Part shown: positions 452-64,000 of the stretch, one piece after another
Layout of the letters: every line of letters starts with the position of its first letter
How positions within the stretch are numbered: position 1 is the stretch's first letter
From: Eledone cirrhosa
Lineage: Eukaryota
DNA: 64,000 bases
Assembly (NCBI GenBank): GCA_964016885.1
Contig: OZ024742.1
Location: 319,548,001-319,612,000, forward strand
Reading direction: 5' to 3'
Translations under genes and position numbers: made by a program
The notes under the pieces: model-generated
What the model was told of the DNA's origin: nothing
Seen by the model: the letters and a program-made list of their open reading frames with translations, nothing else
Databases searched by the model: none

Positions 452-3400
452 GTATATACCTCCATAACATAAGGCATGTGTCAAAACTCAACGATGCTTA
501 AACTTATTTCTATGCAAAGTATATCACGATTTGGCGATATATATTATTCTGAATAATAGTTTGTTTACAAAAATTTATATATATATATTATATATCATCT
601 GAGAAATTTATGTATTGATTTGAGAAAGTGTTTTGAGGAAATACATAAACTGTTAAAAGATGTCTCATAAAATGATTGGTATTTAAGAATAAATAAAACA
701 TGTTGCTGCTCTCGGTTTTATATGTAGATTTAATCACCATTCTGATATCAATCTACCAGGATTACTTCTATGGTTCAAAGTTGTTTGTTTTAAAATCTTC
801 ATATTTAATTTTAAATCATAGGTTTAGGTAAGAACTTTTGTTAAATTATGCACCAAACACCAGCTTAATAATGAAAAAGTTTGTAACATTACTAATTCTC
901 TTTAAATTCTTCATTTGAAAATCATAGGCAGTTTGTTTTATTAGAAGTATGGTAGAAAAAGAGTTAAGTGGAATCATTTTTCAAATTGTATTTAATGCCT
1001 GAACAACTCTGTAAATTCACTAGCTCAATAAAAGTTTGGAATTTTATGTAAGAATGTCTAAATTACGGAAGCTGTACCTAGAAATATCATGAAAGAATAT
1101 GAAATGATGTAGTTTTTGTGCATGTGTCCATCATATCAGAGCCCCGAGCACAGCTTGAAGGGTGGAACTAGTAAAATATCTAATTAGTTTAATATCTTGA
1201 CTGTCCAAGCTATTTTTAAAACAATGAAGACAATGGACACTTAGCTTTTAGGCGGTTGCTTTTATAAACCAATATACAACACCATTTTTTAAAGTAGATT
1301 TGTTTGACCAGTCATTTTCTCTGCAATAGTCTGAAGGATGGATGTTGTAGAATTATAAAAGAATGTAATTAAATATTTTCTACAAGCAAATCTTTTGTAT
1401 AGATTCCCCTTGCTGTTTCTTTCATACACTTTGTTCAAGAGTCCCAAAATAACCATAGCAAATAAGACAGACTACATTATTTGGTCTGATAGAAAATCAT
1501 AATTTGATGGAAGTGAAGCATTTTCCTGTAAATATCGCTACTTTTCATAATGATCAAATTATATGAATAAAACCATTTGCAAGTCTATATTCTTGTGATC
1601 ACCCATATTAACACTTTCTATTCCCTCCCTAAAAGTTTTCTTTGTTACAAGTAATCTCTTTTTCTTTCTCTTTCTCTCATTCATTTTTAGTCTGTTAACT
1701 TTAATAAATGGTTCCAGCAACCATTCATGTACTTAATGGTTTCATTTTTATTTTGTCTACAGTCATTTTAATAGGAATTGAACTTCCATTTTCTTCTCAA
1801 TTTTTAATATTGTTTTACAAGTTTAACATACACGCACGCACATGTAAAAACAAATTCTTCTTCTTCCTATCTGTAAATTAGAAAATCTTATTGTATTTAT
1901 AAAGGGAAAAAAATCTTAAAACCAAACTTTTGTTTTGGAAGAAAAATAAAACTATTTATTTCAACAGTAATGCATTTTATCTGATTTATCTCTGTAAATA
2001 ATTTGATTTTTAATTAGAACATATCACACATATGCATGCACACACGATAAAACGGGTTGCAGTTAAATGTTTCACAGCTTGTTTGCTGTTACTCTAAAAA
2101 AAAAAAAAAAATACCTTTATCTTTCAACCCATAAAGAGAACTTATAGCAATCTGGTATTTATGCCAAACATAAACCAAATATTAACAGAAATGACCAATC
2201 TGCTTAGCAGCATAATTAATTGAATAATGCACAAATAATACTTATGCACAACATATATTAAAATATTTAAGATAGATTTAAACTAGTCATTCCAGTTATG
2301 TTCTGGTTTGTTTTTGACATAAATGGTAATTTGCTACATGTTCTTTATGTAAGTGCAATGAAAAGGTTACTTGTATTTTGATGAACAACCAACTAGCTTG
2401 AAACAATCTTATGTTTTCTGTGAACGAAGATAAAAAATCTGTTTACACTTGTTTTGACAAGGCCTATAAATTAAAATTCTAATTGGGCCTCCATATGTAC
2501 TTAAGTCAAGTCCTTGCAACCTTTCTATCTTGTTTTTTTTGTGTCACTTATGTAAGTTTAGCTGGACTCTTACAAGTTAGCATCTCGTAGGGGGTTTCTA
2601 AGATATTTTAATGATAGGGGCCCCAGTCCTATCATGCTTTTTTGTCTACTCTATAATAACATTAATAGTGTCATAGCTGGCTGAATGGGATGAAAGACAC
2701 TAACTTTCTGCTCAATCCCAATTCATATGCCATTACCAACTCTGTACTTTGTCCCCAAGAAAGACATATAAGAACAGATTACTGCTACTGTATGTTAAGG
2801 ATTTTATTATTTTGCAACAGACGGTTCAAATTTAGTATTCTAAAGAGAGATATGCTTCACAAATTGTCTAGCGCTTTGAACAGTGTTACAAACATTGTGA
2901 AAGTTGATATAATAATTTGAGTGAAGTGAAAGATTAGGGAAAAGGCTTCTTGCTTAGTTTGGAAGGTGTAACACAATTGAGAGAGCAAGAGTATTTTAGA
3001 ATATCTTTATTAGAAAATACATTGTTTTTAATAGTGGTAAAAGAGACAGAGAAGGCTATTAGTTTTAAAATATTGGTGATTGTAGACTTGCTTATTGGTT
3101 TCGTTGATTTTGCTTAGATACAGCAGTTTAGTGTGTGTGCGCGAGTGCATGTATGCGTGTTGGGATTGTCTGGTTCAAGATTGTCTATTACCTTTTGCTC
3201 TATCAAATAAAGAAATTTCTAATGTTGCAGTTGCTTTGCATTTATTTTAGGGTCATAGTTGACTGAAATTTTGTCAATAGATATGACTTTTCTTTGTAAT
3301 ATTTCCAATTTATAAATTCTTTTTTTTTTTTTTTTTTTTTTAATATGTAAAATTCAAATGAAGTTCAATCTAGTTTTTTTCCTTTCCCCCCTTCCAGGCA

Positions 3401-20857: not shown

Positions 20858-20927
20858 TTTCACCTGAAGAAGGGCTTATGCCCGAAACGTCGTTCCCCAC
20901 CACCACCCCACTCTCAAGAACGTGAAA
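20858..20927 (+). ncRNA. Minimal type I hammerhead ribozyme candidate
   Basis: CTGAAGA-A-GGGC-TTAT-GCCC-GAAAC-GTC. Stem III is the palindrome ACGT. TTTCAC can pair with GTGAAA at 20922. Confidence 0.7.
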
Positions 20928-54151: not shown

Positions 54152-57100
54152 AAACTTCAGAGTTGGTACCATAAATGTAGGCACCCTAAAGGGTCGCGCT
54201 AACGAGGTTGTAGAAATGCTTGAACGTAAGGAGGTCGATGTTTGTTGTATTCAAGAGACCAGGTGGAGGGGTGGGTCTGCTAGATTCATTGGGGGTAAAC
54301 GATGTTATAAGCTTTTCTGGGTGGGAAACGACGATGGGCTGGGTGGAGTAGGAATCATGGTAGCAGAAAAGTGGGCAGATAAGATAATAGACGTAAATAG
54401 AGTGAACGACAGAATAATTAAAATACGACTTGTCCTCAATAGAACTACGGTGACAGTAATATCTGCGTACGCACCCCAATCCAGCCTGCCCGGCACTATA
54501 AAAGACAGATTCTATGAGACACTGTTGCTAACTACCTCCCAAATATCTGACAGTGACTATATAATTATTGCAGGCGACCTAAATGGTCACGTTGGACAAC
54601 ATTGTGACGGCTACGACGAAATCCATGGAGGCTATGGGTTTGGTACTAGAAATGAGGAAGGCTCCAGAATCCTGGAATTCTGTGATGCAAATAACCTAAC
54701 TATCTGTAACACTAACTTCAAAAAACGTGACAATCACCTGATCACCTATAGATCCGGGGAACACACAAGCCAGGTAGATTATATCCTTACCAGAAGACGT
54801 GACAGAGTGTCTGTTGTAAACACTAAATCCCTCCCCCATGAAGAATGCACCTCCCAACATAGACTGATAATTAGTGACCTCATAGTCAGGACGAGACGTA
54901 CTCGACAGCAGAAGAGGACTATCCTCAGGAGAAAAATATGGAAGCTAAAGGACCCCACAGCCAGAAATAAATTTCAAAGCATATTACTTGATGCTTTCGA
55001 CAGTAAGGAAGAACATTTAGAGTCGGACAATATAGAGGGACAGTGGGAATTTCTGAAAGCAAACCTGCTGTTGGCGACAGACGAAGTCTGTGGCTGGAGC
55101 AGGCCTGTAGGCAGGAGGAGAGTAACATGCTGGTGGAACAGTAAGGTGGAGGAGTCAATTAAGGCCAAAAAGCAGGCTTGGAAAGTATGGCGGGATGGGG
55201 GAAGTAGAGTAGACTATCAAGTGGCCAGGAGGGAAGCTAGGAGAGAAGTGTACTTAGCAAGAAGGGAAGCTGAGGAAAGAAAGTTCAAGCATGTTCTACA
55301 ACGCGATTACCAAAAACGTGAGGTGTTCAGGATTGCTAGGCAATGCGTCAAGGAAAACCGTGATATTGTCGGGGAGAAGTGTGTACTTAACGATGATGGC
55401 ATACTTGCCATCACCGACACTGATAAGAAGGTAGCTTGGAAGTGTCACTATGAAAGGCTACTAAATGAGGAGAATAAATGGGAGAAAGACAGTCTCCCCC
55501 ATATCGACCCAATAGAGGGACCAGCAGTGTTAGTCGAGGGGAGTATAATAAGTAAGGCAATCAAGGATTATGAAGACGGGTAAGGCGGCTGGGCCTTCGG
55601 AAATAGTTGCTGAGATGCTGAGGGCATCTGGCACGGTGGGACACACCATGGTCACCCGCATAGTTAACCAAGTCGTACAGAATGGGGTTGTTCCGAAGGA
55701 CTGGCATAGCAGCATCATCGTTAACTGTTATAAGGGTAAAGGGGACGCCCTAGATAGGAGTAACTATAGAGGCATTAAATTAATCGACCAGGTCATGAAG
55801 GTCACGGTTAAAAGTAATAGCGCAACGAATCAGAGAGAGAATTGACCTAGATGAAATGCAGTTCGGGTTTGTGTCAGGCAAAAGTACCACAGACGCTCTT
55901 TTCATAGTACGACAACTACAGGAGAAGTACCTAGCTAAAGGTAAACCCCTCTACTTAGCTTTTGTCGACTTGGAGAAAGCCTTCGACAGAGTCCCCCGCT
56001 CCATTATCTGGTGGGCTCTTAGAAAACTAGGTGTTGACGAATGGCTTGTGAGAGCTATACAAGCCATGTATAAAGAAACAGTCAGCAAGGTTAGAATTAA
56101 CAACGAATATAGTGAAGAGTTTAGCGTAAAAGTTGGCGTCCATCAGGGCTCTGTTCTCAGCCCCCTACTATTTATTATTGCCCTTCAGGCTATAACAGAG
56201 GAGTTCAAGACAGGCTGCCCATGGGAACTCCTATACGCAGACGACCTGACACTCATAGCGGAATCAATGGCCGAGCTAGAGAAGAAATTCCAAACATGGA
56301 AGCACGGCCTAGAGTCAAAAGGACTTAAAATTAACCTGGCTAAGACCAAAGTTCTAGTTTGTAGGAAAGAAAACCAGGCGGCAGTCCCTTCTGGGAAATG
56401 GTCGTGCTCGGTGTGTAGGAAAGGCGTAGGTAGAAACTCCATTTTATGTCCTAAATGCAAAGTATGGGTGCATAAAAGATGTAGTGGGATCACAGGTAAG
56501 CTAACTAAGAACATAGATTTTACATGTGGCCGGTGTTCTGGTGCAATAAGTAGCAGCAAGTGCCCACAAAATACTAGCTCTTTCAATTGCGCAGAGGGTT
56601 CTATAGAAATAGTGGACAGCTTCCGTTACCTGGGCGATAAAATCAGCAGTGGGGGAGGGTGCTCTGAAAGTACTGTAGCTAGAGTCAGAACTGGTTGGAA
56701 AAAGTTCAGAGAGCTTATACCACTATTAGCTGCTAAAGGGTTCTCCCTAAAAATGAAAGGCAGGTTGTACGATGCCTGCATACGAACAGCAATGTTGCAT
56801 GGCAGTGAGACCTGGGCATTGTGTGCAGCGGATATACGCAGACTAGAGAGGAACGAAGCTTGCATGCTCTGCTGGATGTGTAACAGTAATATACGTGAAC
56901 GGCAAAGCATAAACGAACTAAGGAAAAAATTAGAGATAAGAGGGATCAGATGTTGTTTACTCGAGAGAAGGCTACGTTGGTATGGACACGTGATGCGCAT
57001 GAAAGTCGATAGCTGTATAACAAAGTGCAGGGCAATAAAGATAGACGGTAGTCATGGAATAGGCAGACCTAGAAAAACCTGGGACGAGCTGATAAACTCC

Positions 57101-57190
57101 GACATCACACACTTACACCTCTCCAAGACAATGTCACTGGACCGAGACCTTTGGCGGTACTCAGTAACAGAGAAGACCCGCCTTACCTAA
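54150..57190 (+). pseudogene. APE endonuclease-reverse transcriptase ORF, split into 54150-55583, 55570-55845 and 55856-57190
   Basis: Comparison with copy 2 shows single-base insertions near 55568 and 55808. The start codon is lost into (TA)n. Confidence 0.92.
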
Positions 57191-57612: not shown

Positions 57613-57816
57613 ATCATCATCATTTTCATTTCATTTAACGTCCACTTTTTCCCTGCTTGCAAGGGTGGGACGGGAACTGATTCTGGCTTGATCCTAACAC
57701 CAACCTCATTTACAGTGAGTGCTGGGTGCTTTTTTGCCGTGGCACCTCCACGACCACTTTGCAGTGGAATGATAGGGACCCCAGTCCCTATCATCTCATT
57801 TCTACAGATGAGTAAA
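57613..57816 (-). mobile_element. 3' half of SINE S1 between the two LINEs
   Basis: Matches 118-331; truncated into (TA)n. Confidence 0.88.
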
Positions 57817-57840
57817 TATATATATGTATATATATATATA

Positions 57841-62561
<4,721 letters not shown>

Positions 62562-62565
62562 TATA

Positions 62566-62606
<41 letters not shown>

Positions 62607-62654
62607 GTATATATATGTATATATGTATATATGTATGTATATGTATATATATGT

Positions 62655-62694
<40 letters not shown>

Positions 62695-62783
62695 GTATAT
62701 ATATATGTATATATATGTATATATATATGTATATATATGTATATATATGTATATATATATATGTATATATATGTATATATATG

Positions 62784-62814
<31 letters not shown>

Positions 62815-63021
62815 GTATATATGTATATATATGTATATATATATATGTATATATATGTATATATATATGTATATATATGTATATATATATGTATATATAT
62901 ATATATGTATATATGTATATATATGTATATATATATGTATATATATGTATATATATATGTATATATATGTATATATATATATGTATATATATGTATATAT
63001 ATGTATGTATATATATGTATA

Positions 63022-63064
<43 letters not shown>

Positions 63065-63209
63065 GTATATATATGTATATATATGTATATGTATATGTAT
63101 GTATATGTATGTATATGTATATATATGTATATGTATGCATATGTATATATATGTATATGTATATATATATGTATATATATGTATATGTATATATATATAT
63201 GTGTATATG

Positions 63210-63258
<49 letters not shown>

Positions 63259-63267
63259 GTGTATATG

Positions 63268-63320
<53 letters not shown>

Positions 63321-63500
63321 GTATATGTATATATATATATGTGTGTATATATATATATATGTGTGTATATATATATATATATGTATATGTATATATATAT
63401 GTGTATATATATATATGTGTATATGTATATATGTGTATATGTATATATGTGTATATATATATATATACATGTATATATGTGTATATATATATATATCCTG

Positions 63501-63532
<32 letters not shown>

Positions 63533-63558
63533 CACATATATGTATATATATTTATATG
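62562..63558. repeat. ~1-kb (TA)n/(TATG) microsatellite
   Basis: Direct observation. Confidence 0.95.
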
Positions 63559-63575
63559 TAATAGGAACGAGTAGG

Positions 63576-63671
63576 ACCCCGACGGCTGAGCTCAAGCCGT
63601 TTCGACGGCTAATTCTGGACTAAATGAAAATTTTTATCCTGGTATATGAATAGCCGAGCTTCTCAGGGGGT
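63576..63671 (-). ncRNA. Type I hammerhead ribozyme candidate with extended stem II and variant core
   Basis: Minus strand ACCCC-CTGAGAA-G.CGGCTA...TAGCCG.C-GAAA-CGGCT-TGAGCTC-AGCCG-TC-GGGGT. Three stems close around the core with a GUC triplet. Confidence 0.7.
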
Positions 63672-64000
63672 AATTCTATATATGGTAAAAGTGATTGTAA
63701 CAAGGATTGGTCAAAAGTTTGTTGTTGAGACAAATAATTCTATCATGGCAATTTGTGGAAGGAAGGGGTAGCTGAATCTGCCAGTAGAAGAAAGGGGGAG
63801 AGGGGGTGGAGGAAACCCAGTCGTGCGTTGATAGTGCCAACTACAGCAGGGCAGGAGGTCAAGGAAGTATACTAGGGAGGGGGAGGAAGTCGAAACAATA
63901 AGTAAAACAATATGGGGTAAATATATAGAAAAATACTGAGAATGTTAAAAAAACAATTTAATATAAAAAAAACAAAAAAAAAAAAAATTTCTTTTTACTA

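What the first reader, a model, noticed from the sequence alone, without database searches (positions are those of the whole stretch)
63559..64000. Minus-strand hammerhead with a non-canonical CUGAGAA core and long stem II at the end of an element abutting (TA)n
Seen: stem I ACCCC/GGGGT; stem III ACGGCT/AGCCGT with loop TGAGCTC; stem II G-C plus CGGCTA/TAGCCG, extended by ATTC/GAAT and an inner GGA-TAAA..TTTA-TCC hairpin; GUC at 63583-63581. The core reads CUGAGAAG, which is either G8 to A or loss of N7 from the CUGANGAAG variant seen at 20864. The upstream minus-strand sequence is pyrimidine-rich and runs off the window. Inference: this is the terminal repeat of a Penelope-like or retrozyme element. 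Its stable stem III suggests it could fold as a monomer, unlike the other two motifs. If the variant core is fixed in the family, it would be an unusual hammerhead.
Basis: partly seen in the sequence, partly recalled or inferred. Interest (0 to 1): 0.75.

Follow-up and report, generated by a model that had tools for sequence, protein, structure and literature searches.

The report
Mismatched-core hammerhead in Penelope-like retrotransposon
This is the hammerhead ribozyme motif at the end of a truncated Penelope-like jumping gene; its odd core is a mismatch carried by about 1,600 genomic copies and repaired in the younger subfamilies, and tiny copies pile up at the predicted cut site, so the ribozyme likely cuts in living cells, probably only weakly in this mismatched form.

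Summary
The motif is real. It is a type I hammerhead at the 3' end of a 5'-truncated Penelope-like element with Hydra-clade protein motifs, inserted in (TA)n. N7 is not lost: it varies freely across sister subfamilies. The core is C3·A8, in 1,628 copies, against 5,154 with U3-A8, a published variant. The family has used all four pyrimidine:purine states: C-G (oldest relative), U•G, U-A, C·A, then U-A again in the young, intact subfamily. The window's subfamily rarely folds as a hammerhead in silico (0.3%); the young one does (47%). Insertion 3' ends lie 17-19 or 98 nt past the cut, so their templates were uncut there. 5' ends pile up at two places: inside loop II (likely transcript start) and exactly at the predicted cut. 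The cut-site peak is about 15-fold over neighbours for U3-A8 copies and about 3-fold for the window's type. Best reading: slow, partial cleavage that transposition does not need. Cleavage is untested and no RNA run was available. This scan noted U3:A8 cores and cut-site or start-site pile-ups before in other genomes, with mixed verdicts.

The parts
63558..64000 (-). 3' end (3' UTR and pseudo-LTR) of a 5'-truncated Penelope-like element. It continues to about window position 64330, where an inverted piece of the same pLTR (from 5 nt before the cut to the +98 end) and (TA)n follow.
   Evidence: no ORF remnant in this copy (tblastn empty)
63667..63671 (-). Stem I, 5' arm (ACCCC)
   Evidence: GCCC/GGGC in the oldest relative
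63660..63666 (-). Core C3-U4-G5-A6-G7-A8-A9: C3·A8 mismatch where canonical hammerheads have the C3-G8 tertiary pair
63648..63659 (-). Stem II, 5' arm (G10.1, mismatch/bulge, CGGCTA, TTC)
63616..63647 (-). Long A/U-rich loop II with a weak inner hairpin; varies between subfamilies
63618..63624 (-). Conserved TTTAGTC (A at 63621, 41 nt before the cut): likely transcription start, inferred from the pile-up of 5' ends
   Evidence: no RNA data
63604..63615 (-). Stem II, 3' arm ending in C11.1
63595..63610 (-). Competing hairpin AGCCGU-CGAA-ACGGCU, which buries GAAA and excludes stems II and III (predicted)
63582..63603 (-). GAAA core half and stem III with palindromic loop (UGAGCUCA)
63580..63581 (-). 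Predicted cleavage site, between C17 (63581) and G1.1 (63580)
   Evidence: hammerhead numbering; genome-wide 5' ends peak here
63576..63580 (-). Stem I, 3' arm (GGGGT)
63558..63564 (-). Short insertion end, 17-19 nt past the cut; one of two family-wide 3' ends (the other is at +98)
62560..63557 (.). (TA)n-rich microsatellite target

Best explanation
The motif is the type I hammerhead in the 3' pseudo-LTR of a truncated Penelope-like retrotransposon, its C3·A8 core is a subfamily-wide mismatch that the younger subfamilies replaced with U3-A8, and it likely cleaves only slowly and partially, which transposition probably does not need. Shown: element anatomy; the core register; four states of the 3:8 pair in one family; a C3·A8 grade between older and younger U3 subfamilies; 3' insertion ends 17-19 or 98 nt past the cut; 5' ends peaking at -35 to -45 and at the cut. 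Inferred: most RNA starts in loop II, so its 5' end carries only the substrate half of the ribozyme. The RT starts at the two internal sites. It must copy across an uncut site to make any full motif, so efficient cutting of the 3' copy is selected against and a weak 3:8 pair is tolerated. A minority of RNAs are cut after C17, and their new 5' ends are recorded as tiny insertions starting at GGGGU, about three times less often in the C3·A8 type than in U3-A8.
For: Counts: 6,973 motif matches, of which 5,154 U3-A8, 1,628 C3-G7-A8 and 61 C3 with another N7. Tree on 514 nt upstream of the motif, 63 rows: C3·A8 copies form a grade between old and young U3 groups; AU test rejects one U3 clade, p 5e-71, 61 rows. 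Ages from inverted pairs fall from 0.083 (C3-G8, 1 pair) and 0.035-0.054 (U3•G8, 4 pairs) through 0.012 (window subfamily, 8 pairs) to 0.0016 (young U3-A8, 5 pairs). Predicted hammerhead fraction: median 0.003 in 35 of 39 window-type copies, 0.47 in 13 of 13 young copies. Of 178 motif ends, 84 stop short and 50 stop at about +98; none stops at the cut. 5' ends at offsets -6, -2, -1, 0, +1, +2, +4: 29, 66, 84, 896, 431, 172, 77 raw matches; 20 of the first 100 at 0 are an extra G and 69 of the first 100 at +1 are a lost G. Foldbacks with both arms at or next to the cut: 51 window-type, 126 U3-A8-type, against 7,414 and 6,954 read-through copies. 14 of 15 window-type cut stubs carry the tail letter that marks C3 copies. 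Papers: single mutants in this core region have low activity (PMC9901934, passages); hammerhead mutants do not impair insertion in vitro (PMC11167929, main text).
Against: No cleavage assay and no RNA data. The peak at the cut could be partly made by junction microhomology: 16 of the first 50 window-type and 22 of the first 50 U3-A8-type foldbacks have no spacer and could form at the CG that spans the cut (hand tallies). The window-type peak is only about 3-fold, with a high +2 background. The tags lie on the substrate half, so a co-expressed U3-A8 RNA could have done the cutting. The distant outgroup did not root the tree and fell among C3 rows without support, so the direction rests on ages and shared letters. 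Older U3-A8 pairs span 0.004-0.068 and overlap the C3·A8 period. Covariation is weak: 4 pairs with two-sided changes, reached by 202 of 500 shuffles. Equilibrium folding ignores co-transcriptional folding and protein help.
Confidence: 0.62

Rival explanations
1. The C3·A8 motif is catalytically dead. The subfamily spread with a broken ribozyme, and window-type stubs at the cut come from microhomology or from cutting in trans by U3-A8 sister RNAs.
For: All single mutants in the C3/G8 region had low activity in one hammerhead (PMC9901934). C3 with G7 makes CUGAG complementary to CUCAG in stem III, and this trap is the best cofold. Predicted hammerhead fraction 0.003. Older U3-A8 copies overlap in age.
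Against: U4, G5, A6, A9, G10.1 and the GAAA and GUC positions stayed essentially fixed through the C3·A8 period. About 17 of the first 50 window-type foldbacks have untemplated spacers between two arms that both start at the cut (hand tally). Cutting between molecules would need co-expression.
Confidence: 0.25
2. No subfamily cleaves in vivo. The motif is kept as a promoter and RT-binding structure, and the peak at +1 is an RT stall or template-switch hot spot at the G run.
For: The conserved block overlaps the likely transcript start and both RT starts. Zero-spacer foldbacks fit CG microhomology. No reads ended at the cut in the lizard element (PMC11167929).
Against: For U3-A8-type copies the peak is one nucleotide wide: about 358 at 0 against 22 at +1, 35 at +2 and about 44 at -1 after scaling (hand tallies). 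The G run is the same in both tags, yet the peak follows the core state. A stall at stem III should give -1 or -2.
Confidence: 0.08
3. The C3 subfamilies use a slipped register: C3 pairs with G7 as if N7 were deleted, and the spare A is the extra base before stem II that Penelope minimal hammerheads carry. This would be an active, new core.
For: 1,628 C3 copies have G7 and only 61 do not. An extra nucleotide between 9 and 10.1 is typical of Penelope hammerheads (PMC4209133).
Against: The C3 subfamilies form one connected grade, so the link with G7 is a single event. No relative has the extra base. U3 came back while G7 stayed, and the cut-site footprint is stronger after that change.
Confidence: 0.05

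Closest known systems
Type I hammerheads in pLTRs of Penelope-like elements, including the U3-A8 variant of Schistosoma mansoni Cercyon (Cervera and De la Pena 2014, PMC4209133; Results and Discussion read)
   Same: Position in the pLTR, type I topology, G10.1-C11.1 pair, palindromic loop III, short stem I, U3-A8 core in most of the family, close inverted pairs.
   Different: Metazoan examples there are minimal or have a tiny stem III and no long loop II. This one has a 6-bp stem III like their fungal and protist variants, a loop II of about 30 nt and no extra base at 9.1. C3·A8 and U3•G8 as subfamily states are not in the text I read; the supplementary figures were not read.
Hydra clade of C-terminal-endonuclease Penelope-like elements (Craig et al. 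2021, PMC8557442; section 11 and passages read)
   Same: Single ORF with RT then GIY-YIG-like end; RWR (their RWK), DKT, CxCX5C linker, late CxxC and CxH; (TA)n targets; tandem and inverted copies; hammerhead in the pLTR.
   Different: Unit about 3.5 kb (theirs generally under 3 kb); tail about 80 nt (theirs 30-40); they report canonical hammerheads for the clade. No RT tree against their references was built.
PAc Poseidon element of Anolis carolinensis (Frangieh et al. 2024, PMC11167929; main text read)
   Same: Two internal RT starts that define the tail, AT-rich targets, hammerhead dispensable for insertion in vitro.
   Different: PAc has C3-G8 and overlaps the start codon, and they found no RNA reads ending at the cut. 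Here genomic 5' ends peak at the cut, and the ORF starts well downstream.
Natural hammerhead core variants (Perreault et al. 2011, PMC3088659; passages read, Figure S7 text not interpretable)
   Same: U3-A8 covariation is described as natural and active.
   Different: No C3·A8 mismatch in the passages read.

Membership tests
Type I hammerhead ribozyme | Three-stem junction with open stem I | tested here: met
   (85% of cells paired; slid controls 21-50%)
Type I hammerhead ribozyme | U4 G5 A6, A9, G12 A13 A14 A15.1, U16.1, H17 | tested here: met
Type I hammerhead ribozyme | Watson-Crick pair between positions 3 and 8 | tested here: not met
   C3·A8 in the window and 1,628 copies; met as U3-A8 in 5,154 sister copies
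Type I hammerhead ribozyme | Active fold favoured as a monomer | tested here: not met
   predicted fraction 0.003 for this subfamily, 0.47 for the young one
Type I hammerhead ribozyme | Match to a curated Rfam hammerhead model | tested here: not met
   also no hit for the canonical-core relatives, so the long loop II probably defeats the models
Type I hammerhead ribozyme | Self-cleavage after H17 | not testable with these tools
   indirect only: genomic 5' ends peak at the site
Penelope-like element with C-terminal endonuclease | Single ORF with RT (YRDD) and C-terminal GIY-YIG-like domain in family members | tested here: met
   717-aa frame in L081, 93% identical to the C3·A8 copy L033; read from motifs, since Pfam gave no hit; top homologue carries PF01541
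Penelope-like element with C-terminal endonuclease | pLTRs from tandem or inverted copies, optional tail, 5' truncation | tested here: met
Hydra clade | RWK-like, DKT, CxCX5C, CxxC and CxH motifs; (TA)n targets | tested here: met
   against PMC8557442 section 11; RWR in place of RWK
Hydra clade | RT phylogeny within the clade | not tested
   no named reference proteins were on hand
Non-LTR retrozyme | Short non-coding tandem units, each with a hammerhead | tested here: not met
   tandem period about 3.5 kb with an ORF; the window copy is a single truncated insertion

The most novel reading that the evidence does not exclude
The element's promoter fires inside loop II, so each transcript begins with only the substrate half of a hammerhead, and the enzyme half at its own 3' end folds back to cut off the 41-nt leader: a split, end-to-end ribozyme. 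One retrotransposon lineage has walked the catalytic 3:8 pair through C-G, U•G, U-A, C·A and back to U-A, and its tiny insertions record how often each state cut in vivo, giving a fossil fitness series for a ribozyme core pair.
Probability: 0.3. Interest if true: 0.75.

Novelty: new variant of a known kind. Interest (0 to 1): 0.52.

Why it matters
What Penelope hammerheads do is open: the papers read report low activity in vitro, no effect on insertion and no in vivo evidence. This family offers natural, age-ordered alleles of one catalytic pair on an almost constant scaffold, plus a genomic read-out (copies starting at the cut) that differs between alleles. That makes the question directly testable with a handful of natural sequences. 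It also shows that a mismatch expected to cripple the core did not stop a burst of more than 1,600 copies, and that searches requiring CUGANGA and a short loop II miss nearly all of these motifs.

Tried and rejected
N7 deletion: rejected as the family register. Rfam: no hammerhead hit. Pfam and PDB sequence searches: nothing useful for the ORF. Sequencing runs: no RNA holder listed; four contig runs of unknown kind were laid and say nothing on expression or ends. First tree included truncated rows and the trait column and was replaced (78 of 169 rows dropped for incomplete upstream cover; 63 of the remaining 91 used; 2 sporadic rows left out of the AU test). Outgroup rooting was unresolved. 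First dating run ran into non-homologous flanks and was replaced. The breakpoint scan of loci already held showed only 2 ends at the cut among 44 listed near it, too few to judge; the genome-wide patterns replaced it. A splice-acceptor reading of TTTAG/TCC was considered and rejected: many ends keep the AG and no constant upstream exon is seen. A long pattern linking core and tail could not be run, so the link rests on 25 loci. Papers not held: Lunse 2017, Przybilski and Hammann 2007, Martick and Scott 2006, Nelson and Uhlenbeck 2008, Hammann 2012, so no measured rate for C3·A8 or U3•G8 was seen. Searches that found no report of a natural C3·A8 subfamily or of copy ends at the cut: (open-access library only). 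Supplements of PMC4209133 and PMC8557442 were not read and may show such cores.

Full report
Observation. It is the only complete type I hit in my scan of the window. On its own the strand folds no better than shuffles, and its best fold is a competing hairpin, AGCCGU-CGAA-ACGGCU. Rfam has no hammerhead hit here or in seven related loci.

The element. The window lies in a 3.0-Gb genome whose host I was not told. The 456-nt end had 2,883 first-look candidates, of which 40 were scored, most at 93-97% identity. The window copy is about 770 nt of 3' end, truncated near window position 64330, followed by an inverted piece of the same terminal repeat, with (TA)n on both sides. Longer copies with the same core carry a broken ORF (L033). 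A sister subfamily has many intact 784-codon frames and tandem arrays with a period near 3.5 kb. Its 717-aa protein is 93% identical to L033's and shows RWR, DKT, YRDD, CxCX5C, a GIY-YIG-like stretch, CxxC and CxH. These are the marks given for the Hydra clade of Penelope-like elements (PMC8557442, section 11). Pfam and PDB sequence searches gave nothing, 2,049 homologues exist, and no RT tree was built, so clade membership rests on motifs and anatomy.

The core. Of 6,973 matches to a pattern open at positions 3, 7 and 8, 5,154 are U3-A8, 1,628 are C3-G7-A8 and 61 are C3 with another N7. A slightly looser G8 pattern finds 63. Position 7 is G, A, C or U, which fixes the register: N7 is present and position 8 is A. 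U3-A8 is published for Schistosoma Penelope-like elements (PMC4209133, Results) and as an active natural variant (PMC3088659, passages). An older subfamily reads UUGAAGAG, a U3•G8 wobble: 22 motif rows in the 30 loci, against 2 with A8 (the query itself had G8). A much older relative has the canonical core: 8 of 26 aligned rows read CUGAYGAG exactly and most others differ by decay, with stem I GCCC/GGGC. That C·A+ resembles U•G in shape is recalled, not from a call.

Order of events. A tree on 514 nt upstream of the motif, with no ribozyme columns, places C3·A8 copies as a grade between older U3 groups and younger U3-A8 groups, both flanking branches starred (63 rows). Holding all U3 rows together is rejected (p-AU 5e-71). 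The distant outgroup did not root the tree. Divergence within inverted pairs gives 0.083 per copy for C3-G8 (1 pair), 0.035-0.054 for U3•G8 (4 pairs), 0.004-0.068 for older U3-A8, 0.012-0.013 for C3·A8 (10 pairs), 0.007-0.010 for later U3-A8 and 0.0016 for the youngest. The likely path is C-G, U•G, U-A, C·A, U-A. The first steps are inferred from age and shared letters; that C3·A8 was a transmitted state with U3-A8 descendants is well supported. Covariation across 19 copies is weak as a statistic.

Folding. With the junction enforced, the predicted hammerhead fraction is 0.003 for the window subfamily (35 of 39 copies could be scored), 0.012 for its U3-A8 neighbours (9 of 10) and 0.47 for the youngest subfamily (13 of 13), which also restored pair 10.2-11.2. 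In a full double-mutant scan of another hammerhead, all single mutants in this region had low activity (PMC9901934, passages). So the window's form is doubly handicapped.

Where copies end. Among 178 motif ends, 84 stop shortly after the motif (72 at +17 or +19) and 50 stop near +98; none stops at the cut. These match two internal RT starts like those shown for the lizard element PAc (PMC11167929). Every copy with a whole motif was therefore made from RNA uncut, or rejoined, at that site. 5' ends show two peaks. In the first 30 read-through copies of each tag, 23 (window type) and 16 (U3-A8 type) begin 35-45 nt before the cut and none between -46 and -117. This is inside loop II at a conserved YAGT motif (TTTAGTC in 143 of 204 motifs). 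I read it as the transcript start; Penelope of Drosophila has an internal promoter (PMC2377424, passages). Most of these copies are tiny foldbacks in (TA)n.

The second peak is at the cut. Patterns demanding three mismatches just upstream gave 29, 66, 84, 896, 431, 172 and 77 matches at offsets -6, -2, -1, 0, +1, +2 and +4 (the -1 and -2 patterns pass two-thirds as often). After removing G-run slips and splitting by tag (hand tallies, scaled from the first 100 rows where lists were cut), U3-A8-type copies give about 6, 39, 44, 358, 22, 35 and 14, a peak near 15-fold; window-type copies give about 20, 45, 57, 197, 69, 124 and 43, near 3-fold. Totals of read-through copies are alike (6,954 and 7,414). 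Foldbacks with both arms at or next to the cut number 126 and 51; those with a single A or T between arms are 14 and 6 of the first 50. The window tag is shared with a small U3-A8 group, but a tail letter separates them (21 of 21 C3, 4 of 4 U3), and 14 of 15 window-type cut stubs have the C3 letter. Against: zero-spacer foldbacks can form at the CG across the cut, several window-type junctions have microhomology, and a sister RNA could cut in trans.

Mechanism. I commit to slow, partial self-cleavage that transposition does not need (0.62). RNA starting at -41 holds only GAAA, stem III, GUC and the 3' arm of stem I. It could be cut in read-through RNAs with a whole motif, or by the enzyme half at the RNA's own 3' end. 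That split hammerhead is the best cofold for the young subfamily but not for C3·A8, where CUGAG pairs with CUCAG (one copy each). This step is a prediction only.

What is known and new. Hammerheads in Penelope pLTRs, U3-A8, tails, inverted copies and (TA)n targets are published. I found no report of C3·A8 or U3•G8 as subfamily states, of a start site inside loop II, or of a cut-site footprint that follows the core state, in ten searches of an open-access library. Five key papers were not held and two supplements were not read. A 2026 preprint on retrozymes from these elements (10.64898/2026.07.22.740005, passages) did not cover it. PMC6765202, PMC2837043 and PMC3884650 were seen as passages only. 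Earlier notes of this scan, seen after my own tests, report a U3:A8 core and start-site or cut-site pile-ups in other genomes, some positive and some not.

Verdict: a real new variant of a known kind, interest 0.52.

Noticed in passing
window 20858-20895 (+): Minimal hammerhead CUGAAGA-A-G with 5-bp stem II, GAAAC and GUC, about 90 nt before (TA)n: the usual Penelope minimal type, from a different family. A 243-codon low-complexity frame lies upstream; no match to the two Penelope-like proteins tried.
   Followed up: partly
window 55799-57187, 57816-58397 and 58366-60759 (+): Open frames of 463, 194 and 798 codons with LINE-like RT and endonuclease wording (DLEKAFD; SAYAPQ; recalled motifs); similar pieces recur in L031 and L042.
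   Followed up: no
window 61364-62434 (+): 357-codon frame that looks like a Tc1/mariner-type transposase by recall; not tested.
   Followed up: no
genome-wide, e.g. L286-L345: Thousands of 100-250-nt foldback insertions made of two head-to-head terminal pieces (one to +17, one to +98) in (TA)n; they far outnumber copies with a whole motif.
   Followed up: partly
L081-L097: Young subfamily with intact 784-codon frames and head-to-tail arrays of up to four units; inverted pairs differ at 5 of 1,561 columns, so it was active very recently.
   Followed up: partly
L030:2891-3037, L113, L200:2713-2749: Another related pLTR type (GATCTAGCTGTCGAAA...CCGGAGCTC) seen only as foldback stubs; its core half was not recovered.
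   Followed up: no
L048:7972-8865: Frame of a different Penelope-like family with a weak Pfam GIY-YIG hit (E 6e-4).
   Followed up: no
L031:1928-2214 with 2345-2443 and 2816-3006: Inverted repeats at 96-97% identity just beyond the window's element, a possible MITE with a nested insertion.
   Followed up: no
genome-wide G run after the cut: Frequent gain or loss of one G (20 of 100 rows; 69 of 100); RT slippage is the simple reading, rejoining after cleavage was not tested.
   Followed up: no
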